Shown here: positions 25,509 through 43,775 of the stretch, piece by piece | How positions within the stretch are numbered: position 1 is the stretch's first letter | How the letters are laid out: every line of letters starts with the position of its first letter | Origin: the human T2T-CHM13v2.0 reference genome, Homo sapiens | Assembly (NCBI RefSeq): GCF_009914755.1 | Contig: NC_060935.1 | DNA length: 64,000 nucleotides | Strand: one strand, 5' to 3' | Made by a program: the position numbers and the translations under genes | Notes under the pieces: generated by a model | Told to the model about the DNA's origin: nothing | Seen by the model: only the letters and a program-made list of their open reading frames with translations | The model's database searches: none

Positions 25509-31676
<6,168 letters not shown>

Positions 31677-34600
31677 TTGAATACCCTTTATTTCTATCTC
31701 TTGCCTGATTACCCTGGCCAGAACTTCCAACACTATGTTGAATAGGAGTGGTGAGAGAGGGCATCCTAGTCTTGTGCCAGTTTTCAAAGGGAATGCTTCC
31801 AGTTTTTGCCCCTTTAGTATGATATTGGCTGTGGGTTTGTCATAAAGAGCTCTTATTATTTGGAGATACATTCCATCAATACCTAGTTTACTGAGGATTT
31901 TTAGCATGAAGGGCCATTGAATTTTGTTGAAGGCCTTTTCTGCATATATTCAGATAATTATTTGGTTTTGGTCAATGGTTCTGTTTATGTGATGGACTAC
32001 GTTTATTGATTTGTGTATGTTGAATGGGCCTTGCATCCCAGGGATGAAGCTGACTTGATCATGGTGGATAAGCTTTTTGATGTGCTGCTGGATTCAGTTT
32101 GCCAGTATTTTATTAAGGATTTTTGCGTCGAAGTTCATCAGGGATATTGGTGCAAAATTCTCTTTTTTTGTTGTGTCTCTGCCAGGCTTTGGTATCAGGA
32201 TGATGCTGGCCTCATAAAATGAGTTAGGGAGCATTCCCTCTTTTTCTATTGATTGGAATGGTATCAGAGAGAATAGTTCCAGCTCCTCTTTGTACCTCTG
32301 GTAGAATTTGGCTGTGAATCTGTCTGGTCCTGGAGTTTTTTTGGTTGGTAGGCTATTAATTATTGCCTCAATTTCAGAGCCTGTTATTGGTGTAATGGTT
32401 TATTCAGAGATTTAATTTCTGCCTGGTTTAGTCTTGGGAGGGTGTATGTATCCAGGAATTCATTCATTTCTTTTAGATTTTCTAGTTTATTTGTGTAGAG
32501 AAATTTATAGAATTCTCTGATGGTAGTTTGTATTTCTGTGGGATTGACGGTGATATCCTCTTTATCATTTTTTATTGCTTCTATTTCATTCTTCTGTATT
32601 TTCTTCTTTATTAGTCTTGCTAGTGGTCTATCGATTTTGCTGATCTTTTCAAAAAACCAGCTGCTGGATTCACTGATTTTTTGAAGGGTTTTTTTTGGGT
32701 CTCTATGTCCTTCAGTTCTCCTCTGATGTTAGTTGTTTCTTGCCTTTTGTCAGCTTTTGAATGTGTTTGCTCTTGCTTCTCTAGTTCTTTTAATTGCGAT
32801 GTTAGGGTGTCAATTTTAGATCTTTCCTGCTTTCTCTTGTGGGCATTTAGTGCTACAAAATTCTCTCTACAGACTGCTTTAAATGTGTCCCAGAGATTCT
32901 GGTACATTGTGTCTTTTTCTCATTGGTTTCAAAGAACATCTTTATTTTGCCTTCATTTCATTATTTACCCAGTAATCATTCAGGAGCAGGTTGTTCAGTT
33001 TCCATGAAGTTGTGCGGTTTTGAGTGAGTTTCCTAATGCTGACTTCTACTTTGGTTGCACTGTAGTCTGAGAGACAGTTTGCTGTGATTTCTATTCTTTT
33101 ACATTTGTTGAGGAGTGCTTTACTTCCAACTATGTGGTCAATTTTGGAATAAGTGTGATGTGGTGCTGAGAAGAATGTATATTCTGTTGATTTGGGGTGG
33201 AGAGTTCTGTAGGTGTCTATTAGGTCCGCGTGGTGCAGAGGTGAGTTCAAGTCCTGGATATCCTTGTTAACCTCCTGTCTCGTTGATCTGTCTAATATTG
33301 ACAGTGGGGTGTTAAATTCTCCCACTATTATTGTGTGGGAGTCTAAGTCTCTTTGTAGGTCTCTAAGGACTTGCTTTATGAATCCGGATGCTCCTGTATT
33401 GGGTGCATGTATATTTAGGATAGTTAGCTCTTCTTGTTGAATTGATCCCTTTACCATTATGTAATGGCTTTCTTTGTTTCTCTTGATCTTTGTTGGTTTA
33501 AAGTCTGTTTTATCAGAGACTAGGATTGCAACACCTGCCTTTTTTTGTTTTCCATTTGCTTGGTAGATCTTCCTCCATCCCTTTATTTTGAACCTATGTG
33601 TGTCTCTGCATGTGAGATGGGTCTCCTGAACACAGGACATTGATGGATCTTGACTCTTTATCCAATTTCCCAGTCTGTGTCTTTGAATTGGGTATTTAGC
33701 CCATTTACCTTTAAGGTAATATTGTTATGTGTGAATGTGATCCTGTCATTATGATGTTAGCTGGTTATTTTGCTTGTTAGTTAATGTAGTTTCTTCCTCA
33801 CATTGATGGTCTTTACAATTTGGCATGTTTTTGCAGTGGCTGGTACCAGTTGTTCCTTTCCATGTTTAGTGCTTCCTTCAGGAGCTCTTGTAAGGGAGGC
33901 CTGGTGGTGAAAAATATCTCTCAGCATTTGCTTGTCTGTGAAGGATTTTATTTCTCCTTCACTGATGAAGCTTAGTTTGGCTGGATATGAATTTCTGGGT
34001 TGAAAATTCTTTTCTTTAAGAATGTTGAATATTGGCCCCCACTCTCTTCTGGCTCATAGGACTTCTGCGAAGAGATCCACTGTTAGTCTGATTGGCTTCC
34101 CTTTGTGGATAACCCGACCTTTCTCTCTGGCTTCCCTTAAATTTTTTCCTTCTCTTCAACCTTGGTGAATCTGACAATTATGTGTCTTGGGGTTGCTCTT
34201 CTTGAGGAGTATCTTTGTGGTGTTCTCTGTATTTCCTGAATTTGAATGTTGGTCTGCCTTGCTAGGTTGGTGAAGTTCTCTGGGATAATATCCTGCAGAG
34301 TGATTTCCAACTTGTTTCTGTTCTCCCTGTCACTTTTAGGTACACCAAACAAACGTAGATTTGGTCTTTTCACATAGTCCCATATTTCTTGGAGGCTTTG
34401 TTCGTTTCTTTTCACATTGTTTTCTCTAAACTTCTCTTCTCGCTTCATTTCATTAATTTGATCTTCAATCACTGATACCCTTTCTTCCACTTGATCGCAT
34501 TGGCTATTGAAGTTTGTGCATGCATCACGTAGTTCTCGTGCCATGGTTTTCAGCTCCATCAGGTCATTTAAGGTCTTATCTACACTGTTTATTCTAGTTA

Positions 34601-35262
34601 GCCATTCATTTAATCTTTTTTCAAGGTTTTTACCTTCCACGTGATGGGTTCAAACATCCTCCTTCAGCTCAGAGAAATTTGTTATTACCGTCCTTCTGAA
34701 GCCCTCTTCTGTCAGCTCATCAAAGTCATTCTCTATCCAGCTATATTCCATTGCTGGTGAGGAGCTGCAATCCTTTGCAGGAGAAGAGGCGCTCTGGTTT
34801 TTAGAAATTTCAGCTTTTCTGCTCTGGTTTCTCTCCATCTTTGTGGTTTTATTTAACTTTGGTCTTTGATGTTGTGACCTACAGATGGGGTTTTGGTGTG
34901 GATGTTCTTTTTGTTGATGTTGATGGTATTCCTTTCTGTTTGTTAGTTTTCCATGTAACAGTCAGGGCCCTCAGCTACAGGTCTGTTGGACTTTCCTGGT
35001 GGTCCACTCCAGACCCTGTTTGCGTAGATATCACCAGCAGAGGCTGCAGAACAGCAAATATTGCAGAACAGGAAACATTGCTGCCTGATCCTTCCTCTGG
35101 AAGCTTCATCCCAGAGGGGCACCCACCTGTACGAGGTGTCAGTCAGCCCCTACTGGGAGGTGTCTCCCAGTTAGGCTACATGGGGGTCAGGGACACACTT
35201 GAGGAGGCAGTCTGTCCATTCTCAGAGCTCAAACACCGTGCTGGGAGAACCACTGCCCTCTC
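31677..35262 (-). mobile_element. Second L1PA (about PA7-8), truncated at both ends
   Basis: Begins mid-RT (PLKTGTR...IRQE), contains the EN ORF 32942-33640, ORF1 34137-34838 and part of the 5'UTR. Confidence 0.93.
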
Positions 35263-36114
35263 CCTATGTATTATATCCACTTTCTGAATTCTTTTCTATA
35301 AATTATAATTTTTATATAATATTGTGTTTTTCAGCCTGAGGAACTTTTTTTTGCATTTTGCATAATACAGGTCTGATGGCTGTTACATTTCTCATCTCTC
35401 AAGTACTGAGCTAATTACTGAATTTCATATGGCAGTTTGAGACCACATTTAGATCTCCCCTAACACAAAAAAGGTAAAAGATTGAGAGTGAGAGGAAATT
35501 CCAGCAATTTGCTAGTACACGGGGTTTTGGAAAAGAGTTTGAAGTTCAATTTCTGCCCTAGTAGGGTGATGTAGTAAATTTTCAGCTTTCTGTTGAAACT
35601 CAATACGGTCCATGTCTCAGCATTAATGTCAACATTCCAGAATTAAGGATTATACAATAACACTTTTTGACATCCTTTATCAATAGGGCTACTCTCTTTA
35701 TCTTTTATGATCTTCACGTTTTTATAGTTATAATTTGTTTTTATGCAGTTGTATCAACAGAAGCATTTACAGCCTTGTATCTTTCCTACAAATAATACAA
35801 TTCTCAAACAGAGCATTAAATAACTTCAGTGTAGTTCTCCCATTCTAGTGAGAAGGGGTTCATCGTCCTTTCCTAGCATTAGCTGACTTCATGTCACATA
35901 TGAGAGAAACTGGAGTTTTATTCTCTGGAAACAAAATAATGTCATGTGTAAAGAATAAGAGTGTCCATTCTAGGTGCTATCACCCATTTGTGTGCTCCTT
36001 TTACATCTGACACGATTTTTCCTTTAAACTATTACCTATTTAATTCCAACTCATCTTTTAAAAAAGCCATTATTATATGGTTTGTAAGGGGTATAATATG
36101 TCCATTTGAGGTAC

Positions 36115-36416
36115 TTTTTTGTTTGTTTCTTTTGAGACAGAGTCTCACTGTGTCGTCCAGGCTGGGATGCAGTGGAATGATCCTGGCTCATTGCAACTTC
36201 TGCCTCCCAGGTTCAAGGTATTCTCCTGCCTCAGCCTCCCAAGTAGCTGGGATTATAGGCATGTAAGACCACACCCAGCTAATTTTTGTATTTTTAGTAG
36301 AGGCTGGTTTTCACCATGTCGGTCAGGCTGGTCTCAAACTGCTGACCTCAGGTGATCTGCCCACCTTGGCCTCCCAAAGTGTTGTCGATTACAGGCGTGA
36401 GCCACTGCTACCGGCT
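36115..36416 (-). mobile_element. AluS-like element
   Basis: T-rich tail, gagacagagtctcac...ctgacctcaggtgatctgcccaccttggcctcccaaag...gagccactgctaccggc. Confidence 0.9.
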
Positions 36417-36419
36417 TAT

Positions 36420-38042
36420 GTGATGTACTTCTTAGCTCATTTATGTCCACTGGCCATGAGAAAATTTGTGCTTTGATTCAATGAGATTTGGGGATCAAAT
36501 TGGTAGTCCATGTATTGTTTCACTAGCCAGATGGTGTTTTCATTTGTGGCTTGGATTACAGGCTAAGTGAATCTCAAAGTGTCATTAAAAGTCTAATCAT
36601 GATAAACCCATTTGACATCACTAGGAGCTATGGCTATTGATCCTTTGTAATAACCCTAAAAGCTCTGTTTTGGTTCTTGGCACTAGCAAGTACTCTTTAA
36701 TCCTATTTAAACAGTGTTTCTGCTATTGATAAAACACCTGAGTCTTTATGATATTACTGGTTTTGGTTGACTTAGTGGAGTATGTCACTATTCTTCCCAT
36801 CATTATGTGTCATTCATCTCATATATCCAAATGGCCACTGAAAATGCAGGGACAAAGACTTTCTATTCTTTTTTTAAAAGAATCAAAACCTAGGTTCCTT
36901 AAAGACCTATAGCACTCAGTTTAATCTTCCCTTAGAATCCTAATGTGGCTTCCACAATAGCATCCTCTGTTGCTGGATTTCTTGATCAACCATATGTATG
37001 AGCAGCAAAAACTTTAGTTCATGGAGCATTTGGTTCTCACTCTCAGAGCAATGTCTGAATATTTCCTGACACCTGTGGTGTAACCACACCATTTGGTCAG
37101 GTAGACCAGAGGTTTGTCTACCTGACCAAATGGTGTGGTTACACCACAGGTGTCAGGAAATATTCAGACATTGCTCTGAGAGTGAGAACCAAATGCTCCA
37201 TGAACTAAAGTTTATGCTGCTCATACATATGGTCATTCAGAGGACTTAACTTTACCTTCTTGAACCAAATTTCTACTATTCAGAGGGAGAATTTCAGCAG
37301 ATTTCCATATGAATCATACCCTTTCGTTTGAAAATCTCCATTAGGAAATTAAATATCTTGTTTTTCTTTATCAGGAAAAGGATAATTGCATTCATACCAG
37401 TGATTAGCAGGAATGAAAACCTCTGTCAGAGGTTCTATTTGTTCTGAAATTTATACTTATAAATATGATATATTTCTCAGAGCCACCCCCTTGAACATTT
37501 CTACATATGCTCTTTCAATTTTATTAAGAAACGTTGTCATGCCATGCTATGCTTTTTTAACTGGCCCTCTAATGTCACCATGACATCGAGGACACTCATA
37601 ATGAATTAATCTGTGTCTCTGTGAAAGTTCAAGCACTTCTCAGTAGTTGTCTTTCAAATTGCCCTCATCTGGCCAGTGTATTAGGAATATTGAATCCAAA
37701 ATGCCAGTTTTCATCCTAGGTTGGCAGAATTAGGCTTCTGTGGGAGTCTCCAGTGTGCATAACTTCCCATAGAAGACACTTCTGAAAACAACTGGGCATT
37801 AAGGTTATTGGGTTTCCATGGCATTGTGTGAGTAACTTCCCATTATAAATCTCCCAGAGTTATTGTTACTTCTTTGTGTTACTAGGATGTGAAAGAGATG
37901 TTATATTTGGTAATGTTTCTAAAATGTCTCTGTTGGTCATGGACCAAGTTGTTCCAAGGAACTTGCCTTATTACTTCAAACTCTGTATTTTGGCTAGACT
38001 GATGAGTCACACTAGACACTGATATTTACTGTCACTCCCATA
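36420..38042 (-). mobile_element. Highly degenerate ERVL-class pol/integrase relic
   Basis: Reverse translation near 36430-36600 gives DTLRFT*PVIQATNENTIW...QFDPQISLNQSTNF...K*AK, which resembles an ERVL integrase core (DT..F.FP...A...TI...G.P..I.SDQGTHF...WA). Extent is approximate. Confidence 0.45.
36989..37233. repeat. Near-perfect inverted repeat (118-bp arms, 9-nt spacer)
   Basis: 36989-37106 is the reverse complement of 37116-37233 except for one A:A mismatch (37008/37214); spacer cagaggttt. Confidence 0.98.
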
Positions 38043-40379
<2,337 letters not shown>

Positions 40380-40934
40380 ACTGAACATATTTATTCCTAG
40401 TTCTAAGGCAACAAATAGGCGGTAAAATACTGCAGTCAATTCAACAGATTCTGTAGGGATGCTTCTCTCTATCTACATAAAGCCATCAGAAAAGTAGTAT
40501 AAATTATCCACTGAGACTAGAATAAATCTAAAGAGAAATTTGGAGAATGAATAAAATCACAGGTACTGAATAAAAGGTCTTGGTACAAGTAAAAATAAAA
40601 CCAAGCTCACCTTGTAACTTTATTTTTCTCAGTTTATATTGAATTAGGACTTAAAGTTATTGATTATTTTCAAAAGAGAAAACACAAGCCACTTCTGTAG
40701 ATGTACTTTTACCCAAATTCATGAGAAAGCAATTTGGCTAATACTTAAAACAGATTTCTGGGGAAAAGAGAGTTGTTTTTAAATCTTATTTTTTTATTAT
40801 TCTATTAGTAAAGCAGCTTTCTGTGTTATTAATTTTGTTTTAAGGTTGCTTCCATTCCGCAAGTCATGTCTATGCATTTCCAGTTCAGGATATTTGGATG
40901 ACAGATGATATTGTCTTTAATGAAAGACAGGATT

Positions 40935-41211
40935 GGCTAGGTGCAGTGGCTCACACTTGCAATCGTAGGACTTTGGGAGGCCGAGGCAGGTGGATCACAA
41001 GGTCAGGAGTTCAAGACCAGCCCAGCCACGATGGTGAAACCCCATCTGTACTAAAAATACAAAAATTACTGGGGATTGGTGGCAGGCATCTGTAATCCCA
41101 GCTATTTGGGAGGCTGAGGCAGAGAACTGCTTGAACCCGGGAGGTGGAGCTTTCAGTGGGGCAAGATTGTGCCATGGCACTTCAGCCTGTGTGACAGAGT
41201 GAGACTCCATC
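40935..41211 (+). mobile_element. AluS-like element lacking its A-tail
   Basis: ggctaggtgcagtggctcacac...gagactccatc runs directly into L1 sequence. Confidence 0.9.
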
Positions 41212-41387
41212 AGGGGGGAGGGATAGCATTGGGAGATATACCTAATGCTAGATGATGAGTTAGTGGGTGCAGCACACCAGCATGGCACATGTATACATAT
41301 GTAACTAACCTGCACAATGTGCACATGTACCCTAAAACTTAAAGTAGAATAATAAAAAATAAATAAATAGATAAATAAATAAATAAA
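41212..41387 (+). mobile_element. Young (L1PA2-like) L1 3' end
   Basis: gggatagcattgggagatatacctaatgctagatgatgagttagtgggtgcagc...ccctaaaacttaaagtagaataataaa plus a (TAAA)n tail. Confidence 0.9.
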
Positions 41388-43775
41388 GAGAAAGGAACCG
41401 CGAAAAAAAAATAAAAAATAAATAAAAATTTAAAAAGGCACTCTTAGTGAACAATTTTGTAAGATGGAATGTAGATAATGATGAAAACAGATGCTAGTTC
41501 TTTACTGCAGGAAAAAAATACTTTAGTTTTTAGAATCATACTAATTCAAGTTATAAACACATTTTTATGATTTTCCTTGCTTGTTCTCATGTGCTTTTTT
41601 GCCACTCTCTGAAGAAAAGGCAAAGCTTCTTATATTCATGATGCTGAAAATATGGATAAGGAAAAGTGTTATTTAGCATAAGCAACATGTTTTCTAAATG
41701 TTGTATTTAAACTGCTAATAGACTTAAATAGATTTGTTGTGTAAGCAAAATTTTGGTTTTCAATTTCATGATAAAAAACAAGTTTTTCTCAGTGTGCAGC
41801 CACCTTAGGACATCAGAAAACAAGAAGATTGAATTGTTTTCATTATAATATAGAACACTATCTATGCTTTGTAAGAGTTAGTTTTTTAAAATAAATTTTT
41901 TTGTATGTTGAATATACAACATGATGTTACGGGATACATGTAGAGAGTAAAAAGGTTACTATTGTGAAGCAAATTAATATATGCATCATCTAAAATACTC
42001 ACTTTTTGTGGAAAAGCAGATAACATCTACTCTTTTAGCATGAATACCAAATACAGTAAAATTTTATTACCTATTGTCCTCATGTTGTATATTAGTCAGA
42101 GGATATAATGTAACAGAAGAAGAAATGAAAAATGAGCAAGTCTAGAGATCTCATGTACAAGAATTTACTTTTCTAAATGAAAACATATTTTATAACTTAA
42201 ATTACTTGAAAATTTTATAATTTGTATGCACATCAAATGATATGTGAAATTCAGAATATTATCAATGTAATTGAAACTACCTGTGTCTACCCCGCTGATG
42301 CCATTCCTCTTTTTCTCCCCAGGGATAAACCAAACACTAAAGTTTTTGTTAATCATAGTTAAAATAGTTTAATTACATATGTACTTTTCCTTAAAAGGTA
42401 TTGTTTAGATTTTCATATTCCTTGCCTTTATTAAAATTGTATTATCCATAGTTTTCTGAATTTTACTTTCTTTCACAATGTAAACATTCTAAGATTTGAT
42501 TATATTACTGTATGTTGCTTTAGTCTCTTAATTTTCCGTGCTGTATATTATTCCATGTGTGAATATACCACCAATTATGCATTGGTTCAATCAGAGGCCA
42601 TTTGCAGTGTTTATGTTTTTTTTTTAATTCATGTTGCACAATATGCAGCTATGGACATCCTGAAAAAATTATTTTGTGTTAAAAATAATGCTTATACACT
42701 TTTACAGATTACTGCATTTTTTTCCTAATGTATTATTAATCACCTCCTTAACCAGTTAAGTTACTTCTACCAACAGTGCATAACAGTTCCATTGCTCTAC
42801 ATCCTTACCAACACCTCACTATAGTGAGATGTTTGATAATTTTTCCTAATGTAATAGCTTTAAGGCTGTAAGTTCATTGTGGTTTTAATTTGCAGTCTTT
42901 ATTGCCACTGAAGTTGAGTATATTCTTAACGTGTTTATTGAATCTCATTTTTTTCTAATTTTCTATGAAATGTGTATTTATGTATCTTACCAACTTTTCT
43001 ACTGGTTGTTTTCTATTATTTTTAATTTATTGGACTTCTTTAGGAAACCTGTGTATTGAATCCTTATTGTTTATATGTATTGCAAACATTTTCTCAGTTT
43101 GTGATTTCCTTTTTTATACTTCTCATTTCATTTGATGAATAAAAGCCTCATGATTTCATTTTTTCTTTATTTATTAAACAAATAAAAATTGCATGTATTT
43201 ATTATATACAATATGTTGTCTTAAAACATGTATACATTGGGGAAGGATTAAATTGAGCTATTTAGCATATGCATTGCCTTACATAGTCATCATATTTTTG
43301 TGATGAAAACACTTAAAATCTACTGTCTTAGCAATTTTCAAGAATAGGTTGTTACTAACTATAGTCACCATGTTGTACAATAGATCTCTTGAATTTATTC
43401 CTTCTATACAATTGAAATTGTGTATTCTTTGACCAAAATCTCCCCAACACGCCTGGTAACCACTATTCTACTTTCTACTGTTATGAGTTCAACTTTTTTG
43501 GATTTCACATATAAGTGAGATTATGTGATATTTGTCTTCCTATGCCTGGGTTATAGCTTAATGCAATGTCCTCCAGTTTCATCCACATTGCCACAAATGA
43601 CAAGATTTCCTTCCTTTTAAAGGCTAAATAGTATTCATTGTGTATATGTACCACATTTTCTTTATCCATTCATCCACCGGTGGACACTTCAGTTGATTCT
43701 GTATCTTGGCTATTGTGAATAATGCTGCAATGAATGTAGTTGTGCAGATATCTCTTTGACATACTGATTTTCTTT

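What the first reader, a model, noticed from the sequence alone, without database searches (positions are those of the whole stretch)
36989..37233. 245-bp near-perfect palindrome inside an ancient retroviral relic upstream of OR4A16
Seen: 118-bp arms with 117/118 complementarity and a 9-nt loop; each arm also holds a mini-hairpin (gtggt-gta-accac). It has no TSD or MITE-like termini, and the host sequence is a heavily decayed ERVL-like pol. The arm identity must therefore be recent (fold-back/template-switch inverted duplication) or maintained by arm-to-arm conversion. Established: palindromes this long with a tiny spacer extrude hairpins or cruciforms, are fragile, and are uncommon outside repeats. 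If transcribed it would give a ~118-bp dsRNA stem, a candidate ADAR/Dicer/PKR substrate. It lies 2.2 kb from the OR4A16 ATG, where a 5' intron or promoter could be.
Basis: partly seen in the sequence, partly recalled or inferred. Interest (0 to 1): 0.8.

Follow-up and report, generated by a model that had tools for sequence, protein, structure and literature searches.

The report
Recent inverted duplication near OR4A16
A 245-base near-perfect DNA palindrome 2.2 kb upstream of the smell-receptor gene OR4A16 is real and arose when about 113 bases were copied backwards next to their source, but it does not sit in an old virus remnant and nothing yet shows that it does anything.

Summary
The palindrome is real. 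Its arms are 36989-37106 and 37116-37233: 118 nt each, 117 of 118 complementary, with a 9-nt spacer. The longest exact stem is 98 bp, against 10-14 bp in 20 simulated 64-kb sequences.

It is not a transposon. The T2T genome holds only two other matches, both on chr11, and each has a single arm. All 5 of 5 paralogues that span the site run straight from the left flank into the spacer and right arm. So the left arm, about 113 new bases replacing 4, is an inverted copy of the adjacent right arm. One junction shows 4-5 nt of microhomology. This is the known '1-4-3-2' template-switch pattern (PMC5453318).

The one arm mismatch lies in the new arm. One difference in 236 sites suggests an age of about 4 My (95% range 0.1-24 My at 1e-9 per site per year). 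The nearest paralogue differs by 7.0%.

The 'ERVL-like pol' host is not supported. The flanks are not repeat-masked, are copied only within the chr11 OR4A clusters, and give no Pfam hit. The large repeat upstream is LINE-1-like.

RNA and fragility effects are untested. Ape orthologues and other human haplotypes could not be examined.

The parts
36989..37106 (.). Left arm: the new, inverted copy of the right arm. The novel bases are about 36994-37106. 36989/36990-36993 is shared with the ancestral flank.
   Evidence: Absent from 5 of 5 junction-spanning paralogues. 117 of 118 complementary to the right arm. It carries the only arm-private change.
36990..36993 (.). Junction microhomology (CCAT). 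It is present both in the paralogues' flank at this place and as the reverse complement of the outer end of the right arm. It is 5 nt if 36989 is counted.
   Evidence: Alignment A1; sequence read.
37107..37115 (+). 9-nt spacer. It is ancestral sequence in its original orientation.
   Evidence: It aligns to the paralogues together with the right arm.
37116..37233 (+). Right arm: the ancestral sequence and donor of the copy.
   Evidence: It is contiguous with the right flank in the paralogues: window 37107-38043 matches L002 1501-2436 at 93.4%. 5 of 5 paralogues agree with it at the arm mismatch.
36412..36988 (+). Left flank: unmasked intergenic sequence belonging to a block duplicated locally within the chr11 OR4A clusters.
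   Evidence: 8 places in the genome, all on chr11. No masked stretch of 100 bases or more.
37234..38037 (+). Right flank: the same locally duplicated block.
   Evidence: 9 places in the genome, all on chr11. No masked stretch of 100 bases or more.
36109..36411 (.). Masked repeat, Alu-like. The name is recalled from motifs, with no library call. It forms an inverted pair with 38038-38288.
   Evidence: (I1).
38038..38288 (.). Masked repeat, Alu-like (name recalled). Homology to the closest paralogue ends here.
39439..40425 (+). OR4A16 coding exon (public annotation), 2206 bases downstream of the palindrome.
   Evidence: Gene table supplied with the finding.

Best explanation
The palindrome is the product of one templated mutation, a switch-and-return template switch during DNA synthesis. 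It is type 1-4-3-2 (mirror case 3-2-1-4) in the four-point model.

A growing strand left its template at a 4-5-nt microhomology. It copied about 113-118 nt of the neighbouring sequence (now the right arm) in reverse complement. It then returned 4 nt beyond the point it had left. The result is a 9-nt ancestral spacer between two near-identical inverted arms.

The event happened in ordinary, locally duplicated intergenic DNA of the OR4A olfactory-receptor cluster, not in a retroviral remnant. It happened late on the lineage of this copy, roughly the last tenth of the time since it split from its 93%-identical paralogue. That places it around 4 My ago with very wide limits.

Shown: the anatomy, the polarity (which arm is new), the local donor and the relative date.
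Inferred: the enzymology (replication fork versus break repair; intra-strand versus inter-strand) and the absolute date.

It is most likely selectively neutral. Its capacity to form a hairpin, cruciform or dsRNA is a physical prediction only.
For: - Arms and spacer.
- The genome holds only 3 places that match the arm, and the other two have one arm each.
- 5 of 5 paralogues that span the site go from window ~36991-36993 directly to ~37107 (alignments A1 and A2).
- The donor is the adjacent arm. The left arm is 99% identical to it, against 91.7% to the closest paralogue. It shares the right arm's state at 8 of 8 sites where the right arm differs from that paralogue.
- At the single arm mismatch, 5 of 5 paralogues agree with the right arm.
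- Window versus closest paralogue: 84 differences in 1200 sites. Of these, 26 are polarised to the window lineage, 31 to the paralogue lineage and 27 are unresolved. The arms show 1 difference in 118 pairs.
- Mechanism in print (passages seen):
  - PMC5453318: type 1-4-3-2 'creates an inverted repeat' and makes up 31% of high-confidence human-chimp events.
  - PMC9435742: the longest events are 119 and 125 bp in one variant set, 90 bp in complex sequence, and 318 bp in the per-individual sets.
Against: - The ancestral state is inferred from paralogues, not from orthologues in other primates. No ape or monkey sequence was available.
- The return junction shows no microhomology.
- A copied tract of about 113-118 nt in complex sequence is at the long end of what the papers I read report.
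- One mismatch gives a very wide date range. If that mismatch is a copying error made during the event, the event could be arbitrarily recent.
- Gene conversion between the arms would produce the same picture from an older duplication.
- Only one assembly was seen.
Confidence: 0.8

Rival explanations
1. The inverted duplication is old, close to the split from the 93% paralogue or earlier on this lineage. The arms have been kept nearly identical by repeated arm-to-arm gene conversion.
For: Arms this close (9-nt spacer) are good conversion partners (general knowledge). All 8 of 8 differences from the closest paralogue are mirrored in both arms. Conversion would also produce that.
Against: 5 of those 8 differences are changes on the paralogue's lineage and only 1 is clearly on the window's lineage. 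Mirroring is therefore what a late copy predicts without any conversion. Both the sister paralogue and 4 older paralogues lack the arm at the same junction, so the event is confined to this lineage. No positive sign of conversion was found.
Confidence: 0.1
2. The same inverted templated insertion was made during repair of a double-strand break (synthesis-dependent microhomology-mediated end joining with snap-back synthesis), not at a replication fork.
For: 4-5 nt of microhomology at one junction, none at the other, and 4 nt lost at the site. This fits end-joining with a templated insertion as well as it fits a fork switch.
Against: Templated insertions of this repair type are usually much shorter than 113 nt (recalled, not checked in a paper here). 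The sequence alone cannot separate the two routes.
Confidence: 0.2
3. Assembly or sequencing artefact: the left arm does not exist in the donor genome.
For: Only one assembly was examined. Palindromes are hard templates for some sequencing chemistries.
Against: The extra arm is embedded between flanks that are collinear with the paralogues on both sides. It carries its own single difference from its donor. At 245 bases it is far shorter than the long reads used for such assemblies (general knowledge).
Confidence: 0.04
4. A palindromic mobile element (MITE-like DNA transposon or a hairpin-forming retroelement fragment), or part of an ERVL provirus.
For: The shape alone. Many MITEs are near-palindromes.
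Against: - No target-site duplication.
- 3 places in the genome and only this one is palindromic.
- The arm sequence is the local ancestral sequence.
- The flanks occur only in the chr11 OR4A clusters, at 9 and 8 places. A true interspersed repeat 4 kb upstream gave 5187 candidates on many chromosomes with the same tool.
- 0 Pfam families for 10 open pieces at E up to 10.
- Protein-level genome searches of two pieces found only the chr11 paralogues, plus one chr9 match at E = 0.03.
- No LTR-like direct repeats bracket the site.
Confidence: 0.02

Closest known systems
Template-switch mutations (TSMs), four-point model type 1-4-3-2 / 3-2-1-4 (Löytynoja & Goldman 2017, PMC5453318; Löytynoja 2022, PMC9435742)
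   Same: A tract is inserted that is the exact reverse complement of adjacent sequence. The flanks are unchanged and a few bases are replaced at the site, creating an inverted repeat in one step. My own assignment of the switch-point order, is 1-4-3-2.
   Different: The length. About 113-118 nt in non-repetitive sequence lies at the upper end of the reported range. Passages of PMC9435742 give 90 bp as the longest in complex sequence in one set, 119 and 125 bp overall in that set, and 318 bp in another set. Here the ancestral state comes from paralogues rather than from an orthologous outgroup.
TSM-born RNA hairpins and de novo miRNA genes (Mönttinen et al. 2023, PMC10710096; Mönttinen & Löytynoja, PMC8794818, listing and abstract only)
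   Same: A perfect stem created in a single event from sequence with no prior inverted repeat. A later point change then introduced a mismatch.
   Different: The stem is about 118 bp, far longer than a miRNA precursor. No transcript, small RNA or host intron is known here. Rfam gives only sub-threshold, structure-driven hits: MIR6224 at 64.9 against 171 bits and MIR400 at 59.7 against 83 bits.
PATRRs, the palindromic AT-rich repeats of human chromosomes 11, 22, 8 and 17 (review PMC7999016, passages)
   Same: A near-perfect palindrome of a few hundred bases with little or no spacer, the class known to extrude cruciforms and to break.
   Different: PATRRs are described as more than 90% AT and 200-600 bp long. 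This palindrome is 42% G+C and 245 bp. No rearrangement is known at this site.
Quasi-palindrome correction (Ripley model, as cited in PMC5453318)
   Same: A nascent strand copies from the opposite or its own strand within a hairpin-prone region.
   Different: That model needs a pre-existing near-perfect inverted repeat. The paralogues show none here.

Membership tests
Template-switch mutation, type 1-4-3-2 | The novel tract is the reverse complement of nearby sequence on the same molecule | tested here: met
   117 of 118 complementary to the adjacent arm. The adjacent arm is a better donor than any other place in the genome, where the next best match is 92-93%.
Template-switch mutation, type 1-4-3-2 | The flanks are collinear with the ancestral sequence, and the order of switch points 1, 4, 3, 2 along it gives an inverted repeat with an uninverted spacer | tested here: met
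   Left flank to ~36993 and spacer plus right arm from 37107 are collinear with 5 of 5 paralogues. The spacer is in its ancestral orientation.
Template-switch mutation, type 1-4-3-2 | The ancestral state is established from an orthologous outgroup or from segregating alleles | not testable with these tools
   No primate genomes, other human assemblies or reads were available. Paralogues were used instead.
Endogenous retrovirus (ERVL) internal region | Similarity to a core gene (gag, pro, pol) | tested here: not met
   0 Pfam families at E up to 10 for 10 of the 21 listed open pieces of at least 35 aa. PDB sequence search of two pieces found nothing relevant. The test has low power for a badly decayed gene.
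Endogenous retrovirus (ERVL) internal region | Dispersed copies across the genome | tested here: not met
   DNA flanks match 9 and 8 places, all in the chr11 OR4A clusters. Protein pieces match the chr11 paralogues only, plus one chr9 match at E = 0.03. Positive control: an L1-like piece gave 5187 candidates.
Endogenous retrovirus (ERVL) internal region | Flanking LTRs, or masking as a repeat in the reference | tested here: not met
   No masked stretch of 100 bases or more in 36412-38037. The direct repeats in 27000-43000 are the L1-like pair and the Alu-like pairs only.
MITE / palindromic DNA transposon | Target-site duplication and many copies with the same terminal inverted repeats | tested here: not met
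   No direct repeat at the ends. 3 places in the genome, 1 of them palindromic.
PATRR | AT-rich (more than 90% AT in the review's words), several hundred bases long, a recurrent translocation site | tested here: not met
   G+C is 42.4%. Translocation involvement was not testable.
Rfam miRNA precursor families | Score at or above the family's gathering threshold | tested here: not met
   Best hits are 64.9 against 171 bits and 59.7 against 83 bits.

The most novel reading that the evidence does not exclude
The hairpin is specific to hominids or to humans and lies in an unannotated 5' transcribed region of OR4A16. It would then be a newborn long-hairpin RNA locus (a substrate for editing or small-RNA processing), or a structural variant that alters choice or expression of OR4A16, or a polymorphic fragile site in the OR4A cluster. 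Nothing seen here excludes this, and nothing supports it beyond position and shape.
Probability: 0.06. Interest if true: 0.6.

Novelty: new member of a known kind. Interest (0 to 1): 0.3.

Why it matters
This is a clean and unusually long example of a one-step template-switch mutation. It made a 245-base near-perfect palindrome out of ordinary sequence, and the pre-event state is preserved in five paralogues of the same genome. Such cases show how long hairpins are born, and they mark places that may be unstable or hard to genotype with short reads.

For the scan it also serves as a correction. The 'retroviral relic' label does not hold, so there is no virus remnant here to date or name. The only large retroelement nearby is LINE-1-like.

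Tried and rejected
Retroviral host.
- Pfam scan of 10 of the 21 open pieces of at least 35 aa that the tool listed over 35261-38037 gave nothing. Of the 11 dropped, 8 overlapped masked repeats and 3 overlapped a chosen piece.
- PDB sequence search of two pieces: one returned only thymidylate synthase at E = 1.5-2.1 and the other returned nothing.
- Six-frame genome searches of two pieces found only the local paralogues, plus one chr9 match at E = 0.03.
- A search for LTR-like direct repeats found none.

Promoter or 5'-exon idea.
- No blastn match at E up to 1e-3 between window 36400-39438 and the annotated first exons (with about 1 kb of flank) of OR4P4, OR4S2 and OR4C6.
- No OR4A16-like coding sequence within 8 kb downstream of 5 of 5 paralogous sites.
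- The arm is not a conservation island among the paralogues.
- Homology to the closest paralogue stops at the Alu-like repeat at 38038-38043.

Known RNA family. Only sub-threshold hairpin-shaped hits.

Literature.
- A search for 'OR4A16' found 33 papers, of which 15 were listed. No listed title or abstract concerns this palindrome (listing only).
- I found no paper describing this locus's palindrome.
- The palindrome catalogue (PMC7680136, passages) counts 783 palindromes of 100-200 bp and 718 over 200 bp, the longest being AT-rich. It requires a perfect central 8 bases, so a 9-nt-spacer repeat like this one falls outside its definition.
- Supplementary figures with TSM length distributions (PMC5453318 Fig. 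S3; PMC9435742 Fig. S12) were not visible. They bear on how unusual 113-118 nt is.

Full report
1. The observation.

The sequence at 36989-37233 is a near-perfect palindrome. Its arms are 36989-37106 and 37116-37233, 118 nt each and 99% complementary, with 9 nt between them.

It stands far above chance.
- Across the whole window, a scan for inverted repeats of at least 25 nt with arms no more than 200 nt apart lists three pairs. The other two are 71-73% complementary and 28-33 nt long.
- The longest exact stem with a spacer of up to 50 nt is 98 bp here. In 20 first-order Markov simulations of 64 kb it was 10-14 bp.
- Folded as one strand, it gives -147.5 kcal/mol as DNA and -224.9 kcal/mol as RNA. 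The shuffle means are -28 and -63, and none of 200 shuffles folded as well.

The small 5-bp hairpin in each arm is there, but it is of a size expected by chance (my estimate). The ends carry no direct repeat. The OR4A16 start codon is 2206 bases downstream (gene table).

2. Which arm is old, and what happened.

A search of the whole T2T genome with the 245 bases found two other places, both on chr11. One is at 48.74 Mb (92-93% identical) and one at 55.34 Mb (76-77%). Each matches one arm's worth of sequence only.

Pairwise blastn shows that the closest paralogue (L002) is collinear with the window in two blocks. Window 36718-36993 matches L002 1220-1496, and window 37107-38043 matches L002 1501-2436. 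Four paralogue bases therefore stand where the window has about 113.

I fetched more paralogues.
- Five span the site: L002, L004, L006, L007 and L008. All five show the same thing.
- A sixth has a deletion across the site.
- Two more begin further right.

So the spacer and the right arm are ancestral. The left arm is an inverted copy that was inserted next to them.

The donor was the adjacent arm itself. The left arm is 99% identical to it but only 91.7% identical to the closest paralogue. At all 8 of 8 sites where the right arm differs from that paralogue, the left arm has the right arm's state.

At the left junction, the four bases CCAT are both the end of the ancestral flank in the paralogues and the start of the inverted copy. 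This becomes five bases if 36989 is counted. At the other junction I see no shared bases.

The reverse history is unparsimonious. It would need an old palindrome that lost the same arm at the same junction in the sister paralogue and in four much older ones.

3. Mechanism.

The anatomy has three features: a reverse-complement copy of adjacent sequence, unchanged flanks with a few bases replaced, and a spacer left in its original orientation. This is the switch-and-return template switch of the four-point model.

Projected on the ancestral sequence, my assignment of the switch points gives the order 1-4-3-2. [quoted passage not shown] Reported lengths reach 119 and 125 bp in one variant set, 90 bp in complex sequence, and 318 bp in per-individual sets (PMC9435742, passages). 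About 113-118 nt in non-repetitive sequence is therefore long but within the known range. The supplementary length distributions were not visible to me.

The sequence cannot tell whether the switch was at a fork or during break repair, or whether the nascent strand copied itself or the opposite strand.

4. Date.

The arms differ at 1 of 118 positions. At that position 5 of 5 paralogues agree with the right arm, so the change is in the new arm.

The window and its closest paralogue differ at 84 of 1200 aligned flank sites, or 7.0%. The K2P distances are 0.068 for the right piece and 0.094 for the left. Of the 84 differences, 26 fall on the window lineage, 31 on the paralogue lineage and 27 are unresolved.

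Arm divergence is thus about one eighth of the paralogue divergence.

| Rate (per site per year) | Point estimate | 95% Poisson range |
|---|---|---|
| 1e-9 | about 4 My | 0.1-24 My |
| 0.5e-9 | about 8.5 My | 0.2-47 My |

These figures come from one change in 236 sites. If the mismatch was made during the copying itself, the event could be younger still.

The older paralogues are at K2P 0.32-0.39. The host block is therefore an ancient local duplicate.

Conversion between the arms could mimic recency. Nothing requires it. Of the 8 mirrored differences, 5 are changes on the paralogue's side, 1 is clearly on the window's side and 2 are unresolved.

5. Is the host a retroviral remnant?

I find no support for this.
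- Stretch 36412-38037 holds no masked repeat of 100 bases or more in the reference's own masking. Its neighbours 36109-36411 and 38038-38288 are masked and look Alu-like (name recalled from motifs).
- The two flanks match 8 and 9 places in the genome, all in the chr11 OR4A clusters at 48.7, 50.07, 54.67 and 55.31-55.42 Mb.
- Ten open pieces from the region gave no Pfam family at E up to 10.
- Two of them, searched in six frames against the genome, found only those paralogues and one chr9 match at E = 0.03.
- PDB sequence searches gave nothing relevant.
- No LTR-like direct repeats bracket the site.

As a positive control, a 582-base piece of the masked block 4 kb upstream gave 5187 first-look candidates. 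All 40 scored matches were 94-100% identical and were spread over many chromosomes. One open piece there matches the Exo_endo_phos endonuclease family above Pfam's cut-off, 30.1 against 24.5 bits. That domain marks a LINE, not a retrovirus.

The protein tests have little power against a very decayed gene, and short masked fragments under 100 bases would not show in my list. A named repeat library should therefore settle the matter.

On the operators' three questions:
- Real? The palindrome is real and the virus remnant is not shown.
- How old? Given above, for the palindrome.
- What family? There is no viral family to name.

6. Function.

No functional element, upstream exon or transcript is annotated at the site. 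The region has no detectable homology to the annotated first exons of three OR4 genes whose 5' exons lie 2.3-3.1 kb upstream of their coding exons. The paralogous blocks are not followed by OR coding sequence within 8 kb in 0 of 5 cases. The arm is no better conserved than its surroundings.

Rfam gives only sub-threshold hairpin-shaped matches.

The review literature says that close, highly similar inverted repeats are the risky kind. The studied human cases (PATRRs) are far more AT-rich than this palindrome, which is 42% G+C (PMC7999016 passages).

My reading is a neutral structural mutation with a physical potential for hairpin, cruciform or dsRNA formation that remains to be observed.

7. 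Verdict.

This is a real, recent, single-step inverted duplication of the template-switch kind. It is unusually long for its kind, sits in ordinary duplicated intergenic DNA, and is not inside a retroviral relic. It is a new member of a known kind and of modest interest.

Noticed in passing
window 27504-35260: Two collinear repeat segments, 27504-31013 and 31677-35229, are offset by about 4.19 kb and are 83-93% alike. A 582-base piece has thousands of near-identical copies genome-wide. One open piece on the minus strand matches the Exo_endo_phos endonuclease family. The block is LINE-1-like, either as two insertions or as a local duplication. The rest of the block was not framed.
   Followed up: partly
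window 36196-36348 and 38048-38200: An inverted pair of Alu-like repeats, 153 nt, 77% complementary and 1699 nt apart, brackets the palindrome. If the region is transcribed, this pair would itself form imperfect dsRNA.
   Followed up: no
window 37054-37168: Rfam E-value mode gives sub-threshold hits of plant miRNA precursor models centred on the palindrome: MIR6224 at 64.9 against 171 bits and MIR400 at 59.7 against 83 bits. I read them as matches to hairpin shape alone.
   Followed up: yes
L004 (chr11:55341495 region) and L002/L015 (chr11:48.73-48.74 Mb): The 55.34-Mb paralogue has a (TA)n run directly after its single arm. In the 48.7-Mb paralogue the left flank is split: window 36412-36727 matches about 5.6 kb further upstream at 96%. 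That suggests an insertion or rearrangement there.
   Followed up: no
chr11 OR4A clusters (48.7, 50.07, 54.67, 55.31-55.42 Mb): The intergenic block hosting the palindrome exists in at least 8-9 local copies on both sides of the centromere, at 66-96% identity. It is not followed by OR coding sequence within 8 kb at 0 of the 5 sites examined.
   Followed up: partly
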